A stretch of DNA of 5,727 nt from the IMG/VR virus record IMGVR_UViG_3300013947_000018, positions 1 through 5,727 of that record; one strand, 5' to 3'. The notes under the pieces are model-generated. The model ran no database searches and was not told where the DNA came from. It saw only the letters and a program-made list of their open reading frames with translations. The position numbers were made by a program, and so were the translations under genes. This document shows positions 1-5,727 of this stretch, in pieces (position 1 is the stretch's first letter; each line of letters begins with the position of its first letter). The stretch comes from a virus.

Positions 1-78
1 ACGGAATCAGTTCGCCGGAGTCGAATGTGGTTAAAATGGTCTGGTCTCGCTTGAATGTGCTACGGGACATGTGTTGCT
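1..78. repeat. Terminal redundancy, copy 1 of a 78-nt exact direct repeat (partner 5650-5727). It is the signature of a circular genome linearised with overlap.
   Basis: By direct comparison, acggaatcagttcgccggagtcgaatgtggttaaaatggtctggtctcgcttgaatgtgctacgggacatgtgttgct occurs at 1-78 and again at 5650-5727 with no mismatch. The repeat lies inside the VP1 coding sequence, so it is an assembly or permutation overlap rather than a biological LTR. Confidence 0.95.
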
Positions 79-118
79 GTGGTACGTTTAAGAAGTGTCG
101 TTCATTGTTTCGATTCAT
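1..118 (-). CDS. VP1: 5' end of the major capsid protein VP1 gene, seen across the circular junction. The proposed true start is the ATG at 118..116.
   Basis: The minus strand from 118 reads in frame ATG AAT CGA AAC AAT GAA CGA CAC TTC TTA AAC GTA CCA CAG CAA CAC ATG AGC..., that is MNRNNERHFLNVPQQH followed by MSRSTFKRDQ. This adds 16 codons upstream of the track's start at 70 (=5719). The ATG at 118..116 overlaps the TGA at 117..115 of the upstream ORF (ATGA coupling). A GAAGAGG Shine-Dalgarno sits 7 nt upstream. The ATG at 70 has no SD (CCACAGCAACACATG). From memory, the HF.NVP....RS.F pattern resembles gokushovirus VP1 N-termini. Confidence 0.7.
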   Translation of the reverse strand, partial: MNRNNERHFLNVPQQHMSRSTFKRDQTILTTFDSGELIP

Positions 119-540
119 TCTTTTGCCTCTTCTTTCGTCACTTTGTCATTTGCTTGGCTCTGATCGGCGTCTCTTTTATTGGCCTCTTTCGTCATTTTGC
201 TTAAATTTTGAAGCTCCATTGCTTTTGCCTGTGCGGTTGCAATCATTTTGTGGTATTCGTGAATGTTGGTCGGCCAATTGGTGATATCGATTTCTTCTCC
301 CGTCTGCGTGCCGGCGCTTAATGCTGTAGCAAATTCCGGGTCAAAGCTTGCTTTTCTGACGATGCTTTTAATGTCGCATTCGTCTGCATAGCTTTCAATT
401 TCGGCTTGGATGTCGATTGGTGTGGTTTCCTGTAAATAATCTTCGTTTTTTTCGTTTTTGCTCCAAACGTATTGTTTACGTTCGGTTTTGCCTGATTCAG
501 AAAAGAAGGGCTTTCGCCCTTCCTCATAGGTTTTATTCAT
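115..540 (-). CDS. Internal scaffolding protein, VP3-like, 141 aa from the ATG at 540. The track's 177-aa version starts at a TTG at 648.
   Basis: The ATG at 540..538 is preceded by GGGAGGG with an 8-nt spacer and overlaps the upstream ORF's stop (533..535) by 8 nt. The product MNKTYEEGRK... is acidic and predicted helical. Its motif ADECDIKSIVRKA, followed by an EYH...A.AKA helix, resembles the gokushovirus VP3 (Chlamydia-phage scaffold family) signature D-E-C-D-I-N-x-I as I recall it. The gene sits immediately upstream of VP1. Confidence 0.55.
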   Translation of the reverse strand: MNKTYEEGRKPFFSESGKTERKQYVWSKNEKNEDYLQETTPIDIQAEIESYADECDIKSIVRKASFDPEFATALSAGTQTGEEIDITNWPTNIHEYHKMIATAQAKAMELQNLSKMTKEANKRDADQSQANDKVTKEEAKE

Positions 541-775
541 GTGCTTTGCCCTCCCATACCTTCTCCGGTTCAATGCTGGTGAATTTGCCGGTTTCATCAT
601 CAAAGTCCGCGATGTGATAGCCGGTGTAATCCTGCGGACACTGGCCAATCATGGTTTTTTCGTCTTTTTCCATAATTTCCATCATGCGCCGGAACGTGTT
701 GTTATTTTTATCTTCGCTTACTCGAATGTAGCACTTTGCCTGACGGTCGTAGATGCCATAATACGGATGATTCAT
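533..775 (-). CDS. Small non-structural protein, gokushovirus VP5/ORF5-like, 80 aa.
   Basis: The ATG at 775 is preceded by AAAAGGAGGAAAAACA (a strong SD). The segment PQDYTGYHIADFDDETGKF matches the P-E-D-Y-x-L-x-x-I-G-x-F-D-x-x-T-G pattern I associate with ORF5/VP5 of Chlamydia and Bdellovibrio microviruses. This is recalled, not searched. Confidence 0.5.
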   Translation of the reverse strand: MNHPYYGIYDRQAKCYIRVSEDKNNNTFRRMMEIMEKDEKTMIGQCPQDYTGYHIADFDDETGKFTSIEPEKVWEGKAHE

Positions 776-789
776 TGTTTTTCCTCCTT

Positions 790-912
790 TTACAGTCTGA
801 TGCCACCGCGCATAGGCTTCTGGGTCAGGTTGATTGTTTTGGTCTTGCGTGCAGTTGCGTTGAATATTTTCTTATCTTTTGCCGGATTTGGTTTACTCCG
901 ATGTCGTCCCAT
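790..912 (-). CDS. Unlisted 40-aa, highly basic ORF. Candidate DNA-binding/packaging protein, analogous to phiX174 J or gokushovirus ORF8/VP8.
   Basis: Hand translation of the minus strand gives MGRHRSKPNPAKDKKIFNATARKTKTINLTQKPMRGGIRL* (7 K, 5 R, 1 H, 1 D). The ATG at 912..910 is preceded by GAAGGGAG with a 7-nt spacer. The ORF overlaps the 3' end of the 77-aa ORF by 20 nt. Its TAA (792..790) runs straight into the SD of the next gene. It falls below the length cut-off of the supplied ORF track. Confidence 0.55.
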   Translation of the reverse strand: MGRHRSKPNPAKDKKIFNATARKTKTINLTQKPMRGGIRL

Positions 913-1126
913 CTTTATACTCCCTTCGGATTAGTTCAAGCTCGATACTGTTTGCAAATCTTTTTGCCGCCCAAATTTGATCGACCATTTTTTTTGCGTC
1001 ATCGATGTTGCTTATTTTTCGCAGTAGCTTGAAATCTGCATTTATTTCTTTGTATTTGCATTGTAGTATGTCCATTAGTGATTCTTCGGTCTGGTCTCTG
1101 ACGTTCCATGTTTTGAATTTGTTCAT
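893..1126 (-). CDS. Hypothetical protein, 77 aa, no recognisable family.
   Basis: The ATG at 1126 is preceded by GACAAGGAGTAAAAC (AAGGAG SD). The gene is co-oriented and tightly packed with its neighbours. The product is charged, predicted helical, and has no transmembrane segment. Confidence 0.55.
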   Translation of the reverse strand: MNKFKTWNVRDQTEESLMDILQCKYKEINADFKLLRKISNIDDAKKMVDQIWAAKRFANSIELELIRREYKDGTTSE

Positions 1127-1129
1127 GTT

Positions 1130-1234
1130 TTACTCCTTGTCGTGCAGTGCGTGATAGATTTCGTCAAGCTTTTCTAAAATATCCATCATGAGTTTAATTG
1201 CTTGTTTGACATCTTTGATGCTAATAAGCGCCAT
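1130..1234 (-). CDS. Possible 34-aa micro-ORF (MALISIKDVKQAIKLMMDILEKLDEIYHALHDKE).
   Basis: The ATG at 1234..1232 lies 3 nt after the peptidase stop and is preceded by AAAGGGGGTATAAAAA. Its TAA (1132..1130) lies 3 nt before the next ATG, and the next gene's SD is embedded in its last codons. It exactly fills an otherwise non-coding gap. Evidence is positional only. Confidence 0.35.
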   Translation of the reverse strand: MALISIKDVKQAIKLMMDILEKLDEIYHALHDKE

Positions 1235-1237
1235 TTT

Positions 1238-1627
1238 TTATACCCCCTTTCTATACTTTACTTCTCGGACGTCTACGTGGACAAAATTGCTGTAACGGAT
1301 AACCCCGCCGTAGTTTTCCATGAGTTCGTCCGCGTATTTTGCAATTAGGCCTGTGCTGACTCCCTTGATTCGGATATCTGCGGCCATGCCTTTGCAATGA
1401 TAACTATTTCCGCTTCCACCTACTGTGCTATTCCAGCTTGGCGTTCTGTAGCCGCTGTTGATGATTACAGGTTTGCTGAAGTGTTCGCGGATTTGTTCCA
1501 GGATTGCGATTAGATCGGTACTCACCAATAATTCGTCGCTTCCGTCTTTGGAGGCCATTTCTTTTGCGTTGAAGTGTTCACTTACATTTCCGAAACTTCT
1601 GTTGATGCAATAAATGAGTGTTGCCAT
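1238..1627 (-). CDS. Zinc D,D- or L,D-peptidase of the M15/LAS superfamily (Peptidase_M15_3 / VanY-like). Putative peptidoglycan hydrolase (endolysin), 129 aa from the ATG at 1627.
   Basis: The metal-binding signature S-x-H-x-x-G-x-A-x-D is present as SYHCKGMAAD (1405..1376). The distal ligand motif is present as FVHVDVR, and a preceding SGYRTPSWN motif is also there. I prefer the ATG at 1627 because GAAGAGGTGG lies 6 nt upstream and the sigma70 promoter lies about 80 nt upstream. The track's start at 1816 has no SD, lies inside the iteron array, and is upstream of that promoter. Confidence 0.85.
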   Translation of the reverse strand: MATLIYCINRSFGNVSEHFNAKEMASKDGSDELLVSTDLIAILEQIREHFSKPVIINSGYRTPSWNSTVGGSGNSYHCKGMAADIRIKGVSTGLIAKYADELMENYGGVIRYSNFVHVDVREVKYRKGV

Positions 1628-1706
1628 GTTTACCACCTCTTCAATTGTCAATGTTTTCGCTTTCACTGATGAAATGAGCTGTCCAGCCAAGCTCCTTGCA
1701 CTTTCT

Positions 1707-1735
1707 ATTTTAATGTTTACCTGCGTCGAAGTCAA
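1707..1735 (-). promoter_or_regulatory. Sigma70-type promoter driving the whole minus-strand gene block.
   Basis: The minus strand reads AAAAAAAACC TTGACT TCGACGCAGGTAAACAT TAAAAT AGAAAG. The -35 TTGACT is at 1735..1730, the spacer is 17 nt, and the -10 TAAAAT is at 1712..1707. An A-tract (UP-like) lies just upstream. It is the only such match I found in the non-coding region, though my scan was not exhaustive. Confidence 0.6.
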
Positions 1736-1803
1736 GGTTTTTTTTGCGTATGCGAAAAAAATTTTGAGTTCGGCACAGGTTGCCCGCCGCAGGCGAGTTT
1801 TCA

Positions 1804-1834
1804 ACACTTTCAACATTTCAACAAGTTTTCAACA
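1804..1834. repeat. 31-nt direct repeat, copy A (acactttcaacatttcaacaagttttcaaca).
   Basis: It matches 1868-1898 at 30/31 positions (c to t at position 26). The period is 64 nt. Confidence 0.9.
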
Positions 1835-1840
1835 TAAATA

Positions 1841-1860
1841 TGCACAAAGGCTTTTGTGCA
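1841..1860. other. Perfect hairpin/palindrome TGCACAAA-GGCT-TTTGTGCA, centred between the two 31-nt repeats.
   Basis: The 8-bp stem is 1841-1848 paired with 1853-1860, and the 4-nt loop is 1849-1852. All pairs are Watson-Crick. Confidence 0.8.
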
Positions 1861-1867
1861 ATTTGCT

Positions 1868-1898
1868 ACACTTTCAACATTTCAACAAGTTTTTAACA
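1868..1898. repeat. 31-nt direct repeat, copy B (acactttcaacatttcaacaagtttttaaca).
   Basis: 30/31 identity to 1804-1834. Confidence 0.9.
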
Positions 1899-2010
1899 AA
1901 ACTTTCAACATGAAAATTCTTTAGAATTTTACGCTTTAACGTTCATTTTTAGTGGTTTTCAACTTTTTCACATACACTACTACTACGACTACAACAAGTT
2001 AGAAAAATAT

Positions 2011-2057
2011 TGCGCGCGCGCGCACGTGCGCGCTTCGTGCGCGTGTGCGCGTGCGCT
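2011..2057. repeat. Alternating purine-pyrimidine (CG/TG)n tract, Z-DNA-prone, that can fold into a long hairpin.
   Basis: 2011-2033 (tgcgcgcgcgcgcacgtgcgcgc) is 23 nt of perfect R/Y alternation. 2036-2056 (cgtgcgcgtgtgcgcgtgcgc) is 21 nt of the same. Only tt separates them. 2018-2033 is a 16-nt perfect palindrome (gcgcgcacgtgcgcgc). 2014-2033 can pair with 2037-2056. The tract sits in an otherwise AT-rich spacer and is flanked on both sides by AAATAT. Confidence 0.9.
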
Positions 2058-2065
2058 CTAAATAT

Positions 2066-2103
2066 AGAAAAAAGCCCAGTACTTACTTGATAGGTACTGG
2101 GCT
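2066..2103 (-). terminator. Rho-independent terminator ending the VP1-VP2-VP4 transcript.
   Basis: The minus strand reads AGCCCAGTAC-CTATCAAGTAA-GTACTGGGCT followed by TTTTTC. The 10-bp perfect stem is 2073-2082 paired with 2094-2103, and the loop is 11 nt. The hairpin begins 12 nt after the VP4 stop codon (2118..2116). Confidence 0.8.
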
Positions 2104-2115
2104 AGGTGACACCGA

Positions 2116-3135: not shown

Positions 3136-4013
3136 TTTCCGTATTTCCCCCTAAGTTTGATTCCTGCTTTCATTCCTTCATTCAAGGCGAGTGATGTTGG
3201 TAAGCTTATTCCCGTTTTTCCTGATAAGTTTGCCGCTTTTTGCGTTGTCTCCATGCCTTTTTTGATTCCACCCTTTACGGCTCCACCGATGTCTTTGCCG
3301 ATTTCGCTTAGTGCTTCGGATAGTCCTTTTGCTGACATGTGTGTTTCACTTTGCATTTTATTCCAGCTTTGTGCCGCGTTGTACCAGTCTGATTCGCTCC
3401 AACTTTGTGCGCTGTATGAATTTGGAACAAATCCGCTTGCTCTACTTACTCCTAGTGCACTACTCGATGTTAGCCCCATACTTGCACCGCTGATTGTGCC
3501 GGCGCTCCCGCCCGGTGTGCTTGCTCCGCCGTTTGCGAATGCTAGAATTGGATTAAGTCCGGCCGCTTTCATGTCTTCTACGGCTCTTTGATAGCTCGTG
3601 TTTGACATTTTTTCCTGCCATTCTCGATTTGCTAGCGCTTCCGCACTGTTGTAGTTCATTGCCACACTATTTTCGATGTGATTATATATGCCTTGCATGA
3701 GTGCTCCAAGCGTATTGTATCCCATTTGCATTAGTGTTGCTCTCATGTTGTTTTTTACTTGGTTTTGTCCTTCCGTGTTTTGGTAATTGTACGCATTGTT
3801 TAGCCATTCTTCGATTTGTTTATCGTTTGTTCCGCTTGTGCTCCCGCTTCTGCTTGATCCACCGCCCTGCTGTGTACTTCCACCTGAGCTTTGCGAACTT
3901 CCTTCTTGTCCCCAGTTGCCGAACGCTTGCCCAAGGCTTCCGATTGCACTTCCTACGGTTCCTACGGTGCTTGCGATTGCTCCAATTGTCGCTAGCGTTT
4001 CTGTGATTGCCAT
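3132..4013 (-). CDS. VP2: Minor capsid / DNA pilot protein VP2, 293 aa.
   Basis: The conserved core NREWQEKMSNTSYQRAVEDMKAAGLNPILAF is the hallmark microvirus VP2 block (T-x-Y-Q-R ... D-M-K-x-A-G-L-N-P). The N-terminus is hydrophobic and glycine-striped, followed by a Gly/Ser/Gln low-complexity linker. The gene lies directly after VP1. Confidence 0.9.
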   Translation of the reverse strand: MAITETLATIGAIASTVGTVGSAIGSLGQAFGNWGQEGSSQSSGGSTQQGGGSSRSGSTSGTNDKQIEEWLNNAYNYQNTEGQNQVKNNMRATLMQMGYNTLGALMQGIYNHIENSVAMNYNSAEALANREWQEKMSNTSYQRAVEDMKAAGLNPILAFANGGASTPGGSAGTISGASMGLTSSSALGVSRASGFVPNSYSAQSWSESDWYNAAQSWNKMQSETHMSAKGLSEALSEIGKDIGGAVKGGIKKGMETTQKAANLSGKTGISLPTSLALNEGMKAGIKLRGKYGK

Positions 4014-4047
4014 AATAATATAGCCCCGTTTCCGGGGCTTCCTCCTT
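4014..4047 (-). promoter_or_regulatory. VP1-VP2 intercistronic element: an AAGGAGG Shine-Dalgarno separated from the VP2 ATG by a stable GAAA-tetraloop hairpin.
   Basis: The minus strand reads TAA AAGA AAGGAGG A AGCCCCG-GAAA-CGGGGCT ATATTATT ATG. The SD is at 4047..4041. The 7-bp G/C-rich stem is 4039..4033 paired with 4028..4022. An 8-nt tail runs to the ATG at 4013. Confidence 0.7.
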
Positions 4048-4051
4048 TCTT

Positions 4052-5719
4052 TTAGATTTTGTCGAGACCCGGCACGCTGTAAAGTGGCATTACTCGCGTT
4101 GTTTTGTTGCTGATTTGGATCCCGCCAAAGAATTGCGGTTCATCCTGTACGATTAGCGTTCTTGCAATTTCGGTTTTGCCTTCGCTCATCCATTCCTGTG
4201 ACAGTGTCGGCACGGTCGAATAGTTGTCTCCATAGTGCCAGAAGTCTAGTGTCCCTTCTGCATTGCTTCGCATTTTTCCGCTGATTCGGTTCGGCTTCAT
4301 GCGGTAATCTGCCCATGCTTCTTGATAACCAAATGTTTCCTCGTCAGTCGTATTACCTGTGAGCATGATCTCTTTCTTCTTAACAGGCTGTTCGCCCAGA
4401 TTAGCAAACTGTGGCACATAGTAGTCCAGTCTGTCTCTACGGCTCCACATGCGTTCCAGTCCCTGCTGATAGCTCCGATTATGACGTACACACATTACGC
4501 CGATGATCCATCCATGTTCTTCGAAGCTCTTCGTGAAACTGCTTTCGTTGATGGGTGTTACTGACATTGCACCAGTTTCGCCAATAGGTGTATTGGTTTC
4601 TGTGTTCGCCGCACTAGTCTGTACAATCTGATTCATATTTACATGGTAGCGACCGCCTCCCAGATATTCCGGAATCTGTACAGTTTTATCGCTGATTTCG
4701 GTACCCCAGATTGCCCGAATTTGTTCACGGTACCGACTGCCACCGCGTGCTAGTGCTTCATAGTAGTGCTGTACTGCGATTGCCTGCCGTAGCTCATTGA
4801 TTGTCACCGCGTTTACACTGCTGAGGTCTGTTGCTAGATGTCCACTGATAGCGGTTCCTGCTTTGTTTAGATAATTGACTCGATTCCATCCGTCCAAACT
4901 ATTTACATACCATGTCTGAAGTGTTCCATCACCGCTTAAATTAGGTTTATTTGCGCCGATCCAATATTGGTTATTTTCAAGTGAGCCGTCTTCATTCTCA
5001 TAGATTACGTTTGCGTTTCCCGTCATTGGGATATTAACCTCCGGTCCTCGCTGAGGATACGGCAGACAGCTCGTGAAATAGTCGTGGAATTTGTTGACAG
5101 GCAGACAGCGACCGCCGGTGATTGCGTTCGTTAGAATGTCGTCCATGGATGAGTATTTGCTGTCTGTGTAGTCTACATTTGTGTCGCTTTTAATCCAGGT
5201 TGCTTCATTTTCTACGTTCTGATCTCTGAAAAATTCATTCCAGATCATAACGTATGCTCTGACTGGCAGCGCGTTTACTTCAAAAGTACTGGTGCTGTTT
5301 TTTTCGCCTAGGATGTGCGTCGGTACGCCCATGTAGTCCAATATGCTTCCCGTTCTCGGGTTATCTTCATCGTCGACGGGTTCTGCATAAACGGCATTAG
5401 GGGCGATTTTTGTAGGCTGTCGGATTGTGATTGTTGGTACTTTATATTCTCTTTCTGGCATCCACGGTGTTCCTTCTACTTCTCCCATGAACTGCTTCCA
5501 GTGTTCCCACAAGATGCGGTTAGGCGCATAGAAGTAATAGATGTCAATAAAACTGTCATCCATTACCGGGTATTTCGGTGTAGTCATTCGGATGATCGCG
5601 CTTGTGTTTACTCGGAATGTGTCATTGGGAAGTACTTCATCAACGTAGAACGGAATCAGTTCGCCGGAGTCGAATGTGGTTAAAATGGTCTGGTCTCGCT
5701 TGAATGTGCTACGGGACAT
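4052..5719 (-). CDS. VP1: Major capsid protein VP1 (Microviridae F-protein family). 555 aa in the window, about 571 aa if started at the wrap-around ATG (window position 118).
   Basis: The N-terminal block RSTFKRDQ..TTFDSGELIPFYVDEVLPNDTF...MTTPKYPVMDDSFIDIYYFYAPNRILWEHW matches the canonical microvirus capsid signature (RS-F ... G-x-L-I-P ... E-V-L-P-G-D-T ... F-F-V-P-x-R-x-x-W). The size is typical of gokushovirus VP1. The reading frame stays open to the window end (5727) and continues at 79-118. Confidence 0.95.
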   Translation of the reverse strand: MSRSTFKRDQTILTTFDSGELIPFYVDEVLPNDTFRVNTSAIIRMTTPKYPVMDDSFIDIYYFYAPNRILWEHWKQFMGEVEGTPWMPEREYKVPTITIRQPTKIAPNAVYAEPVDDEDNPRTGSILDYMGVPTHILGEKNSTSTFEVNALPVRAYVMIWNEFFRDQNVENEATWIKSDTNVDYTDSKYSSMDDILTNAITGGRCLPVNKFHDYFTSCLPYPQRGPEVNIPMTGNANVIYENEDGSLENNQYWIGANKPNLSGDGTLQTWYVNSLDGWNRVNYLNKAGTAISGHLATDLSSVNAVTINELRQAIAVQHYYEALARGGSRYREQIRAIWGTEISDKTVQIPEYLGGGRYHVNMNQIVQTSAANTETNTPIGETGAMSVTPINESSFTKSFEEHGWIIGVMCVRHNRSYQQGLERMWSRRDRLDYYVPQFANLGEQPVKKKEIMLTGNTTDEETFGYQEAWADYRMKPNRISGKMRSNAEGTLDFWHYGDNYSTVPTLSQEWMSEGKTEIARTLIVQDEPQFFGGIQISNKTTRVMPLYSVPGLDKI

Positions 5720-5727
5720 GTGTTGCT
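5650..5727. repeat. Terminal redundancy, copy 2 (identical to 1-78). The unit genome length is 5,649 nt.
   Basis: Exact 78/78 identity with the window start. Confidence 0.95.

What the first reader, a model, noticed from the sequence alone, without database searches (positions are those of the whole stretch)
1238..1627. A microvirus carrying an M15/LAS zinc peptidase, as the first gene after the promoter and with no visible holin
Classical Microviridae lyse with a small MraY-inhibiting 'amurin' (phiX174 E), and a lysis function is generally unassigned in gokushoviruses. Here a full S-x-H-x-x-G-x-A-x-D ... H-x-D metallopeptidase is encoded. This fold is shared by VanX/VanY, Listeria phage Ply500 and the phage T5 endolysin. 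I see no signal peptide on it. None of the co-oriented small ORFs (34, 77 or 40 aa) has a transmembrane segment. It is therefore unclear how the enzyme reaches the murein. Options include dependence on another membrane lesion, a role at entry rather than exit, or virion association. As far as I recall, M15-type peptidases have been noted in some metagenomic microviruses but not functionally characterised.
Basis: partly seen in the sequence, partly recalled or inferred. Interest (0 to 1): 0.7.

Follow-up and report, generated by a model that had tools for sequence, protein, structure and literature searches.

The report
Gut gokushovirus cell-wall peptidase, no holin
This small single-stranded DNA phage from the gut carries an intact zinc cell-wall peptidase taken from tailed phages, a feature of gut gokushoviruses published in 2012, and how the enzyme crosses the membrane to reach the wall is still unknown.

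Summary
Window 1627-1238 (- strand) encodes a 129-aa Peptidase_M15_3 protein (Pfam E 3.7e-23; PHROG 894 'endolysin' E 7.5e-36). The zinc-site residues H77, D84, H117 and D119 are invariant in 51 homologues. The AlphaFold model (pLDDT 94) matches LAS/hedgehog-fold peptidases.

The protein has no signal peptide. No ORF on the coding strand of this genome has a transmembrane segment, and neither do ORFs in about 90 genomes of the same clade. The same scan finds holin-like ORFs beside homologous peptidases in Clostridia prophages and a Faecalibacterium phage.

The gene follows an intrinsic terminator and a sigma-70-like promoter. It is translationally coupled to a conserved 34-aa ORF.

This is not new. 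Roux et al. 2012 described M15_3 peptidases in human-gut Gokushovirinae and proposed an endolysin role. GenBank gokushoviruses already carry 'peptidase M15' annotations, and more than 650 homologues exist.

Best reading: a horizontally acquired, cytoplasmically made endolysin that depends on a still unidentified membrane lesion. It is a new member of a known kind. The missing holin is a real but modest open question.

The parts
1238..1627 (-). Peptidase CDS. It encodes 129 aa forming a single Peptidase_M15_3 (MEROPS M15A-like, LAS fold) domain, with no signal peptide and no cell-wall-binding domain.
   Evidence: Pfam E 3.7e-23. PHROG 894 endolysin E 7.5e-36. AF2 pLDDT 94. Foldseek hits 1lbu, VanY, Ply500, LysECD7, ChiX and T5 Lys. 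BFVD viral M15A peptidases reach TM up to 0.95.
1376..1405 (-). Codons S75-D84 (SYHCKGMAAD). They hold the first two predicted zinc ligands, H77 and D84.
   Evidence: S75, Y76, H77, K79, G80, M81, A82, A83 and D84 are invariant in 51 sequences, and C78 is nearly invariant. The segment aligns to SRHMYGHAAD of the Streptomyces albus Zn DD-peptidase 1lbu.
1271..1279 (-). Codons H117-V-D119. H117 is the predicted third zinc ligand and D119 is a candidate catalytic residue.
   Evidence: H117 and D119 are invariant in 51 sequences. Their assigned roles are inferred from LAS-family knowledge and were not tested.
1633..1639 (-). Shine-Dalgarno sequence GAGGTGG, 5 nt upstream of the ATG at 1627.
   Evidence: Read directly from the sequence. 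Most of the 44 relatives have a purine-rich SD-like sequence at the same place.
1707..1735 (-). Sigma-70-like promoter TTGACT-17-TAAAAT, about 80 nt upstream of the peptidase ATG.
   Evidence: It is the best match in the window at 10 of 12 positions. Of 44 relatives, 22 have TTGACA/TTGAAA-16..18-TAtAAT in the 260 nt upstream of the peptidase, 17 of them within about 110 nt, often with a TG-extended -10. It is a consensus match only. The whole-window count of such sites does not exceed that of shuffles.
2067..2103 (-). Intrinsic terminator after VP4. A 10-bp GC-rich stem is followed by U6. It closes the VP1-VP2-VP4 unit upstream of the peptidase.
   Evidence: dG -18.6 kcal/mol, z -4.4, 0 of 200 shuffles fold as well. 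Inverted repeat I6. The hairpin is conserved: its translation 'HLAQYLSSK' recurs in relatives.
1628..2115 (.). Main non-coding region between VP4 and the peptidase. It holds the terminator, GC-rich palindromes, TGTTGAAA repeat clusters, a long hairpin and the promoter.
   Evidence: The ORF extension through 1628-1816 is not conserved as protein.
1130..1234 (-). Conserved 34-aa ORF, translationally coupled to the peptidase. Its SD lies in the last peptidase codons and only 3 nt separate the stop from its ATG. It is acidic and forms an amphipathic helix. Function unknown.
   Evidence: tblastn matches at 53-93% identity in 38 of 41 relatives and in 84 of 90 peptidase-bearing clade genomes. pI 5.5 and muH 0.65. 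No Pfam, PHROG or NCBIfam hit. Called as a gene in ENA contigs.
893..1126 (-). Conserved 77-aa soluble ORF of unknown function, downstream of the 34-aa ORF.
   Evidence: Found in 38 of 41 relatives. No family hit. No hydrophobic segment.
3912..4010 (-). VP2 (DNA pilot protein) residues 2-34, a Gly/Ala/Thr-rich, weakly hydrophobic N-terminal segment. It is the only membrane-active candidate on the coding strand.
   Evidence: It is the top KD19 stretch on the - strand, at 1.69. VP2 matches PHROG 8742 'pilot protein for DNA ejection', E 1.1e-101. A role in lysis is inference only.

Best explanation
The gene encodes a catalytically intact, single-domain zinc peptidoglycan peptidase of the M15_3 / LAS fold. 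An ancestor of this gut gokushovirus clade acquired it horizontally from the lysis module of a tailed (pro)phage, most likely one infecting Clostridia. The gene has since been kept in essentially every member of the clade.

It is transcribed as the first cistron after the VP4 terminator, from a sigma-70-type promoter, and translated from a strong Shine-Dalgarno sequence. The protein accumulates as a soluble cytoplasmic enzyme. At the end of infection it cleaves peptide stems or cross-links of the murein and so releases progeny. In other words, it is an endolysin.

The enzyme has no signal peptide or SAR domain, and the genome encodes no holin-like protein. Its access to the wall must therefore depend on a membrane lesion made by something not yet recognised as a lysis factor. 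That is presumably the ancestral, still unknown gokushovirus lysis function. The only hydrophobic candidate in the genome is the N-terminal segment of the pilot protein VP2.

**Shown:** family, fold, conserved active site, absence of export signal and of TM ORFs, gene context, near-universal retention in the clade.

**Inferred:** lysis role, timing, route of access, bond cleaved, host.
For: **Family and fold.** Supported.

**Purifying selection on the active site.** H77, D84, H117 and D119 are invariant across 51 homologues of 59-98% identity.

**Homologues act as endolysins in tailed phages and sit beside holin-like ORFs.** In Faecalibacterium phage FP_Toutatis the endolysin is followed by a 131-aa ORF with 2 TM segments. 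Clostridia prophage loci L063-L066, L077 and L082 show the same arrangement.

**Nearest cellular homologues.** They are almost all Clostridia, at 44-53% identity. This agrees with Roux 2012.

**Retention in the clade.**
- 47 of 49 VP1-recruited genomes with VP1 at least 59% identical carry the peptidase.
- The other two are a 4241-nt partial contig and a contig that begins exactly at the next gene's ATG.

**No TM ORF.**
- None in the window.
- 50 of 51 further clade genomes have none.
- In the 39 complete-size peptidase-recruited genomes, only two spurious ORF classes appeared.

**Contrast with a sister clade.** A clade with VP1 about 44% identical lacks the peptidase. Instead it has small TM ORFs in the VP2-VP4 gap. 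This fits the peptidase being this clade's lysis solution.

**Expression signals.** Promoter, terminator and SD are supported.

**Published view.** The same interpretation is given in PMC3394797 and PMC11499846.
Against: - No lysis, zymogram or muropeptide data exist for any gokushovirus M15 peptidase.
- A cytoplasmic endolysin without a holin is normally harmless, so the key step of membrane passage has no identified agent.
- The hydropathy scan is crude. It could miss an unconventional membrane-active protein.
- M15A domains also occur in virion-associated lysins of tailed phages, including Gp5-like and 900-1200-aa tail proteins. The fold alone therefore does not separate an exit role from an entry role.
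- Peptidase-less gokushoviruses lyse their hosts by an unknown route. The enzyme may therefore be accessory rather than the primary lysis effector.
Confidence: 0.6

Rival explanations
1. The peptidase is a virion-associated entry enzyme, or serves both entry and exit as phage phi6 P5 does. A few copies would be packaged or attached to the capsid and would locally open the murein so that the VP2 pilot tube can deliver the ssDNA.
For: - M15A domains occur in tail or virion lysins of tailed phages (Gp5 OB-fold proteins, a 1191-aa 'cell wall hydrolase').
- The Ebor microvirus peptidoglycan hydrolase Gp7 was detected in trace amounts in virions.
- The absence of a holin would then not be a puzzle, because the enzyme would act from outside.
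- dsRNA phages use one lytic protein for both steps (review PMC10707117).
Against: - The closest tailed-phage homologues are small endolysins in lysis cassettes, not structural proteins.
- The protein has no domain or extension that could dock it to a T=1 capsid or to VP2.
- The gene sits outside the VP1-VP2 structural unit, behind its own promoter.
- Cultured gokushoviruses infect without such an enzyme (my own knowledge).
Confidence: 0.12
2. The peptidase is an enzymatic 'amurin' that works from inside the cell. It would hydrolyse cytoplasmic or inner-leaflet murein precursors (UDP-MurNAc-peptides, lipid I/II) in the manner of VanX or VanY. That would starve wall synthesis, so growing cells lyse without any holin. 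Functionally this parallels phiX174 E, but acts by catalysis.
For: - It explains the complete lack of export signal and TM partner in about 90 genomes.
- It also explains why the Clostridia-type C-terminal wall-binding domain is absent. Prophage homologues are 216-279 aa against 129 aa here.
- The LAS clan contains enzymes that act on precursors, VanX and VanY among them (one search lists VanY and VanXYg among the fold matches).
- Microviruses classically lyse by blocking precursor synthesis (citing Bernhardt 2000).
Against: - There is no direct evidence.
- The nearest relatives are ordinary endolysins that sit with holins. The single-domain 139-aa FP_Toutatis endolysin shows that small size alone is not diagnostic.
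- Related small M15 endolysins are routinely over-produced in E. coli cytoplasm without lysis (my own knowledge).
- Sequence similarity lies with M15A / MepK-type enzymes that act on mature murein.
Confidence: 0.08
3. The gene has no role in lysis. It would be a remnant, or a moron-like gene that remodels the host wall (for example, for superinfection exclusion or host fitness), while lysis is carried out entirely by an unknown gokushovirus factor.
For: - Peptidase-less gokushovirus clades exist.
- Two very different alleles, 59-69% and 44-52% identical to the window protein, occupy the same locus on equally related backbones. This shows the module is exchangeable.
Against: - Retention is near-universal in a 5.6-kb genome under strong size constraint.
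- The catalytic residues are invariant.
- The gene sits behind a strong promoter.
- The enzyme cannot remodel the wall without export, so the same access problem applies.
Confidence: 0.06

Closest known systems
M15_3 peptidases of human-gut Gokushovirinae and Alpavirinae (Roux et al. 2012, PMC3394797), and the GenBank 'peptidase M15' CDSs of Human gut gokushovirus KX513877, KX513868 and KX513876 and of Microviridae sp. MG945xxx
   Same: - Same Pfam family.
- Same about-128-aa single-domain architecture.
- Same locus between VP4 and VP5.
- Same gut source.
- Same Clostridia/Faecalibacterium affinity of the nearest cellular homologues.
   Different: - This genome is only 74-79% identical in nucleotide sequence over at most 48% of its length to any GenBank phage record.
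- Its peptidase is at most 66% identical to those in the GenBank phage records searched, and 78% identical to an NR 'Microviridae sp.' peptidase.
- KX513877 carries the other allele, 45% identical, on a similar backbone.
Single-domain M15 endolysins of tailed phages, such as Faecalibacterium phages FP_Toutatis, FP_oengus and Lelie, Yersinia phage phiR1-37 g084, and Pectobacterium phage PP1
   Same: - 43-48% identity over the whole domain.
- Same fold and zinc motif.
- About 130-140 aa with no wall-binding domain.
   Different: Those genes lie in lysis cassettes beside TM holin-like ORFs. The microvirus has none.
Streptomyces albus G zinc D-Ala-D-Ala carboxypeptidase (PDB 1lbu, MEROPS M15A) and the wider LAS / hedgehog-fold clan (VanY, VanX, Ply500, T5 Lys, LysECD7, ChiX)
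   Same: - Best sequence hit among solved structures (E 2e-5 and 1e-6).
- Best structural hit among solved structures (Foldseek E 5e-4).
- The H-x6-D zinc motif aligns.
   Different: - TM-scores are only about 0.5 and identity is 10-24%.
- The downstream motif here is H-x-D. My recollection of other LAS enzymes is H-x-H, or E/D-x-x-H.
- The bond specificity is unknown.
Peptidoglycan hydrolase Gp7 of the microvirus Ebor ('Tainavirinae'), PMC11980548
   Same: - It is a microvirus-encoded murein hydrolase acquired from tailed phages.
- It is the only one with biochemical proof (zymogram).
   Different: - By the paper's HHpred match (6SSC) it is a different enzyme family, not described there as a peptidase, and it belongs to a different subfamily infecting an alphaproteobacterial host.
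- Ebor also encodes a 45-aa predicted membrane protein, Gp1. This clade has no such protein.
phiX174 protein E and other single-gene lysis 'amurins'
   Same: Both belong to a tiny ssDNA phage that must lyse its host with minimal coding capacity and without a holin-endolysin pair.
   Different: E is a small TM protein that inhibits MraY and is encoded in an overlapping frame. Here the effector is a soluble hydrolase in its own reading frame, and no TM ORF exists.

Membership tests
Pfam Peptidase_M15_3 (PF08291) / MEROPS M15A-like | Profile match above the curated gathering score, over the full domain | tested here: met
   82.2 bits against a cut-off of 23.2, E 3.7e-23, profile positions 8-108 of 108.
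LAS / hedgehog-DD-peptidase fold zinc peptidases | Zinc-ligand motif H-x(3-6)-D plus a downstream His | tested here: met
   H77-x6-D84 and H117 (with D119) are invariant in 51 sequences. The first motif aligns to the SRH...AAD motif of 1lbu.
LAS / hedgehog-DD-peptidase fold zinc peptidases | Three-dimensional fold | tested here: met
   AF2 model pLDDT 94, pTM 0.89. The named top PDB hits are LAS-fold proteins: 1lbu, hedgehog N-domains, VanY, Ply500, LysECD7, ChiX, LysB4 and T5 Lys. TM-scores are modest, about 0.4-0.55.
LAS / hedgehog-DD-peptidase fold zinc peptidases | Zinc binding and peptidase activity on murein | not testable with these tools
   This needs purified protein, metal analysis, a zymogram and muropeptide LC-MS.
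Canonical phage endolysin of a holin-endolysin system | Adjacent or co-encoded holin (a small protein with at least one TM segment) | tested here: not met
   No coding-strand ORF of at least 25 aa reaches KD19 of 1.5 in the window. The clade shows the same at the 1.5 and 1.6 thresholds used. The scan does detect holin-like neighbours in tailed-phage homologues.
Secreted or SAR endolysin | N-terminal signal peptide or signal-anchor-release domain | tested here: not met
   The family N-terminus MKxIxxIxAxxG has no hydrophobic core. Residues 5-9 are a core beta strand. KD19 maximum near the N-terminus is 1.04. No dedicated signal-peptide predictor was available.
Peptidoglycan L,D-endopeptidase MepK (NCBIfam NF053624, equivalog) | Score above the curated equivalog cut-off | tested here: not met
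   49.9 bits against a cut-off of 185. The protein is related but not an equivalog, so its bond specificity is open.
Single-gene lysis protein / amurin (phiX174 E type) | Small membrane-anchored protein, often in an overlapping frame | tested here: not met
   The only overlapping-frame candidate is the +1 frame of VP1 at 4491-4297. It is weakly hydrophobic and is broken by stop codons in most of 40 relatives.
Gokushovirinae (Microviridae) genome | VP1 (Phage_F), VP2 pilot, VP4 Rep, VP3 Chlamydia-phage-type scaffold, VP5 and an ORF8-like basic protein on one strand of a circular genome of about 5-6 kb | tested here: met
   - Phage_F E 2.2e-130, REP_ORF2-G2P, Chlamy_scaf and Phage_ORF5.
- PHROG pilot protein E 1e-101 and phrog_10695.
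- A 78-nt terminal overlap gives a 5649-nt circle.
- The nearest records are Gokushovirinae.
Virion-associated peptidoglycan hydrolase | Physical presence in the virion, or fusion to a structural protein | not testable with these tools
   No fusion: the protein is a free-standing 129-aa product. Virion proteomics would be needed.

The most novel reading that the evidence does not exclude
The clade may have evolved a truly holin-independent enzymatic lysis. There are two possible versions. In one, the soluble LAS peptidase destroys murein precursors on the cytoplasmic side, acting as a catalytic 'amurin'. In the other, it crosses the membrane through a channel formed by the DNA-pilot protein VP2, whose Gly/Ala-rich N-terminus is the only hydrophobic element in the genome. 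Either version would be a lysis strategy not described for any phage.
Probability: 0.12. Interest if true: 0.75.

Novelty: new member of a known kind. Interest (0 to 1): 0.3.

Why it matters
How gokushoviruses lyse their hosts is a long-standing gap. They lack phiX174's E gene, and no lysis gene has been assigned in the cultured members. The gut clade to which this window belongs always carries a conserved murein peptidase but no protein that could let it through the membrane. That makes it a convenient system in which to look for the missing membrane-lesion factor, or for a holin-independent route.

The affinity to Clostridia, the strong Shine-Dalgarno sequences and the extended -10 promoters also hint that these abundant gut microviruses infect Bacillota. 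That would widen the known host range of Microviridae.

The enzyme itself is ordinary, and its presence in gut gokushoviruses has been in the literature since 2012.

Tried and rejected
1. **The 192-aa ORF from ATG 1816 as an N-terminal targeting extension.** Rejected. It is not conserved in relatives, and the promoter lies inside it.

2. **A hidden holin in the +1 frame of VP1** (4491-4297, 64 aa). It looked recurrent in the TM scan. Rejected: the frame is interrupted by stops at varying places in most relatives, and it is weakly hydrophobic here.

3. **A recurrent 50-52-aa 'TM' ORF (...HLAQYLSSKVLGIIILIA) upstream of the peptidase in relatives.** Rejected. It is the translation of the conserved VP4 terminator hairpin plus its T-rich tail. 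In the window the frame stops right after the hairpin.

4. **L041 as a microvirus with holins.** Rejected. It is a 5.7-kb fragment of a tailed phage, with a 340-aa multidomain lysin beside a 3-TM holin.

5. **L138 and L165 as natural peptidase-less clade members.** Withdrawn. L138 holds the last 39 codons of the peptidase at its contig end. L165 starts exactly at the ATG of the next gene. Both are probably broken linear contigs.

6. **The 34-aa and 77-aa ORFs as obligatory export partners.** Not supported. Both are soluble, and the 34-aa ORF is acidic. tblastn did not detect the 34-aa ORF in L001, L002 and L031. It did not detect the 77-aa ORF in L031, L036 and L037. All of these loci carry the peptidase. 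tblastn is insensitive for such short ORFs.

7. **Host assignment from MAG bins.** L051 is binned as 'Bacteroides' and L052 as 'Prevotella'. Both are whole microvirus contigs placed in a bin, so they are not evidence of host.

8. **Antisense (+ strand) hydrophobic ORFs.** These are attributed to the T-richness of that strand. They were not pursued.

9. **Literature search for functional work on gokushovirus M15 peptidases or a gokushovirus lysis gene.** Nothing found.
Full report
**What the window is**

The 5727-nt window is a complete circular genome of 5649 nt, read with a 78-nt terminal overlap. All genes lie on the - strand. In order they are:

- VP1 major capsid (Phage_F, E 2.2e-130)
- VP2 pilot protein (PHROG 8742, E 1e-101)
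- VP4 replication initiator (REP_ORF2-G2P; PHROG 942, E 5e-107)
- a 488-nt non-coding region
- the peptidase
- ORFs of 34 and 77 aa
- a 40-aa basic ORF8-like protein (phrog_10695)
- VP5 (Phage_ORF5)
- VP3 (Chlamy_scaf)

. This is a typical gokushovirus. The nearest GenBank phage records are gut Gokushovirinae and Microviridae sp. from humans and pigs. They reach only 74-79% nucleotide identity over at most 48% of the genome. Two ENA metagenome contigs of 5.7 kb encode exactly the same peptidase, with the same gene calls.

**Check of the observation**

The ORF at 1627-1238 (- strand) gives 129 aa.

- It matches Pfam Peptidase_M15_3 over the whole profile (82.2 bits, cut-off 23.2, E 3.7e-23). 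It also matches Peptidase_M15_2 and PHROG 894 'endolysin' (E 7.5e-36).
- The only solved structure found by sequence is the Streptomyces albus zinc DD-peptidase 1lbu. It aligns through the SxHxxGxAAD motif.
- In an alignment of 51 homologues that are 59-98% identical to the window protein, S75, Y76, H77, K79, G80, M81, A82, A83, D84, H117 and D119 are invariant.
- An AlphaFold2 model is confident (pLDDT 94, pTM 0.89).
- Foldseek against the PDB returns LAS/hedgehog-fold proteins as its named top hits: 1lbu, hedgehog N-domains, VanY, Ply500, LysECD7, ChiX, LysB4 and T5 Lys. Scores are modest, with TM about 0.4-0.55.
- Foldseek against BFVD returns viral M15A peptidases with TM up to 0.95, including several 'Microvirus mar' peptidases.
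- NCBIfam gives only a sub-threshold similarity to the L,D-endopeptidase MepK (49.9 against 185 bits). The bond cleaved cannot be named.

**Start codon and export signals**

The mechanical ORF list offers a 192-aa version starting at 1816. It is not real:

- M1 of the 129-aa form is conserved in at least 90% of homologues, and the occasional longer gene calls have unrelated extensions.
- The extension has no tblastn match in 41 related genomes.
- A GAGGTGG Shine-Dalgarno sequence precedes ATG 1627.
- The best promoter match lies inside the extension.

The true N-terminus has no hydrophobic core. Residues 5-9 form a strand of the folded domain. I found no signal peptide or SAR domain, although no dedicated predictor was available.

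**Search for a holin**

A 19-residue Kyte-Doolittle scan of every stop-to-stop segment on the coding strand finds only one stretch at or above 1.6, the Gly/Ala/Thr-rich N-terminus of VP2. The next best values are 1.12, 1.04 and 0.95.

I extended the scan to 42 microvirus-size contigs recruited from IMG/VR through the peptidase, and to 51 further clade genomes recruited through VP1 or by exact protein match.

Only two recurrent 'hydrophobic ORFs' appeared, and both are artefacts:
- One is the translation of the conserved terminator hairpin after VP4.
- The other is a +1-frame ORF inside VP1, which is broken by stop codons in most relatives.

In 50 of the 51 further genomes, nothing reaches 1.6.

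As a positive control, the same scan finds TM ORFs directly beside homologous peptidases in Clostridia prophages and in Faecalibacterium phage FP_Toutatis. The 'no visible holin' statement is therefore robust for the whole clade, within the limits of a hydropathy method.

**Context and expression**

- VP4 is followed by a strong hairpin and U6 (dG -18.6 kcal/mol, z -4.4).
- The best sigma-70-like site in the window (TTGACT-17-TAAAAT, 1735-1707, - strand) lies about 80 nt upstream of the peptidase ATG.
- 22 of 44 relatives have near-consensus TTGACA-17/18-TATAAT sites in the 260 nt upstream of the peptidase. In 17 of them the site lies within about 110 nt, and many have a TG-extended -10.
- Most relatives have a purine-rich Shine-Dalgarno-like sequence at this position. 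That argues against a Bacteroidota host. This last point rests on my own knowledge of ribosome-binding-site usage.

The peptidase stop is 3 nt from the ATG of the 34-aa ORF, whose SD lies within the last peptidase codons. The cassette peptidase / 34 aa / 77 aa / ORF8 / VP5 / VP3 is conserved in about 38 of 41 relatives.

The two small ORFs are soluble, and the 34-aa one is an acidic amphipathic helix. They match no family. Some peptidase-bearing genomes show no detectable copy of one or the other. I do not regard them as demonstrated partners.

**Distribution and origin**

- More than 650 homologues (E at most 1e-5) exist in the protein collection. The best 120 are nearly all 127-130 aa, and most whose longest contig exceeds 4 kb lie on contigs of 5-6 kb.
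- tblastn hits 626 phage records, among them many Microviridae annotated 'peptidase' or 'peptidase M15'.
- Among 64 new genomes recruited by VP1 alone, 49 have VP1 at least 59% identical. Of those, 47 carry the peptidase. The two exceptions are a partial contig and a contig that starts exactly at the next gene.
- Clades with VP1 at most 44% identical lack the peptidase. One of them has small TM ORFs in the VP2-VP4 gap instead.
- Two alleles, 59-69% and 44-52% identical to the window protein, occupy the same locus on equally related backbones. An allele 68% identical sits in a backbone whose VP1 is only 39% identical. The module is therefore exchanged among microviruses.
- In bacterial genomes, the nearest homologues on large contigs are almost all Clostridia, at 44-53% identity. 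They are either secreted multidomain wall hydrolases or 216-279-aa prophage endolysins with holin neighbours.

**Comparison with the literature**

- Roux et al. 2012 (PMC3394797) reported M15_3 peptidases in 5 human-gut Gokushovirinae and 6 Alpavirinae. They showed repeated horizontal acquisition and found Faecalibacterium/Clostridiales affinity for the gokushovirus copies. They noted holin neighbours in the prophage homologues, proposed an endolysin role, and speculated on Gram-positive hosts.
- M15 peptidases are also described in cultured marine Occultatumvirinae (PMC11499846).
- The first biochemical proof of a peptidoglycan hydrolase in an ssDNA phage concerns a different enzyme, Ebor Gp7. 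That phage also has a small membrane protein (PMC11980548).
- I found no functional study of a gokushovirus M15 peptidase and no identified gokushovirus lysis gene.

**Interpretation**

The most likely reading (about 0.6) is a horizontally acquired, cytoplasmically synthesised endolysin. It is fixed in this gut clade, and its access to the murein depends on an unrecognised membrane lesion. That lesion is presumably whatever lyses peptidase-less gokushoviruses. VP2's N-terminal segment is the only hydrophobic candidate in the genome.

The rivals are:
- a virion-associated entry enzyme or a dual-role enzyme (about 0.12)
- a catalytic amurin acting on precursors from inside the cell (about 0.08)
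- a non-lytic function (about 0.06)

None can be excluded without experiments.

**Verdict**

The feature is a new member of a published kind rather than a discovery. The lasting value is that the absence of any holin-like ORF is now documented across about 90 genomes of the clade. Interest is 0.3.

Noticed in passing
window 1798-1846 and 1862-1910 (motif as read on the + strand), with a weaker third copy near 1944-1972: There are two 49-nt direct repeats, 64 nt apart. Each is built of three to four TGTTGAAA units when read on the coding strand. The 15-mer TTCAACATTTCAACA recurs in the same VP4-to-peptidase intergenic region of 41 fetched loci, in the same orientation relative to the genes. A translated trace of the motif also appears in L051, whose lineage has VP1 about 39% identical. 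These could be iterons for VP4 or a host factor, or promoter elements.
   Followed up: partly
window 2007-2063: This stretch is GC-rich with alternating purines and pyrimidines (GCGCGCGCGCACGTGCGCGC...GCGCGTGTGCGCGTGCGC). It forms nested palindromes just downstream of the VP4 terminator, inside an otherwise AT-rich intergenic region. It may be a replication-origin or Z-DNA-prone element.
   Followed up: no
window 1719-1780: A long imperfect hairpin has 29-nt arms (dG -25.7 kcal/mol, z -3.4). One arm contains the -35 hexamer of the putative peptidase promoter. The hairpin might regulate the promoter, or act in the single-stranded viral DNA, for example in complementary-strand synthesis.
   Followed up: partly
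window 4014-4051 (- strand): Between VP1 and VP2 the Shine-Dalgarno sequence AAGGAGG is separated from the VP2 ATG by an 18-nt GC hairpin (AGCCCCGGAAACGGGGCU, dG -15.2) plus 8 nt. The hairpin may act both as an attenuating terminator and as a device that brings the SD close to the start codon.
   Followed up: partly
loci L131-L187 compared with L001-L039, plus L031, L051 and L049: Two peptidase alleles occupy the same locus on backbones equally related to the window. They are about 59-69% and about 44-52% identical to the window protein. The backbones have VP1 59-80% and VP4 71-84% identical. An allele 68% identical to the window protein sits in a lineage whose VP1 is only 39% identical. This implies exchange of the peptidase module among microviruses. 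Roux 2012 did not detect any transfer between microviruses.
   Followed up: partly
loci L177-L185, for example L177 4581-4688, L180 4767-4919 and L179 4844-4969: A sister gokushovirus clade with VP1 about 44% identical lacks the peptidase. It has small ORFs of 35-50 aa with one strong TM segment (MKLWKLLVLVFFAWFLFGNGWAMMLGLIAVLLGGA) in their own space between VP2 and VP4. These are candidate single-gene lysis proteins. That clade is T-rich, so some hydrophobic ORFs there arise by chance.
   Followed up: partly
window 1-118 and 5650-5727; window 115-648: The gene boundaries probably differ from the mechanical ORF list.
- VP1 likely starts 16 codons upstream (MNRNNERHF..., giving 571 aa). It overlaps the VP3 stop in ATGA, as called in the ENA contigs, and L052 shares the same N-terminus.
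- VP3 likely starts at ATG 540 (141 aa), not at TTG 648. The PHROG match begins at residue 37.
   Followed up: partly
window 1614-1913 (+ strand) and 539-934 (+ strand): Long antisense ORFs of 99 and 131 aa carry hydrophobic segments. They are most likely a by-product of the T-rich non-coding strand. Roux 2012 did report a complementary-strand ORF next to the peptidase in one gut microvirus.
   Followed up: no
loci L051 (in a 'Bacteroides sp. CAG:545' bin) and L052 (in an 'uncultured Prevotella' bin): Whole 5.7-5.8-kb gokushovirus genomes appear as separate contigs inside Bacteroidota MAG bins. Given the strong Shine-Dalgarno sequences of these phages, the placement is probably a binning artefact. 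It should not be taken as evidence of host.
   Followed up: partly
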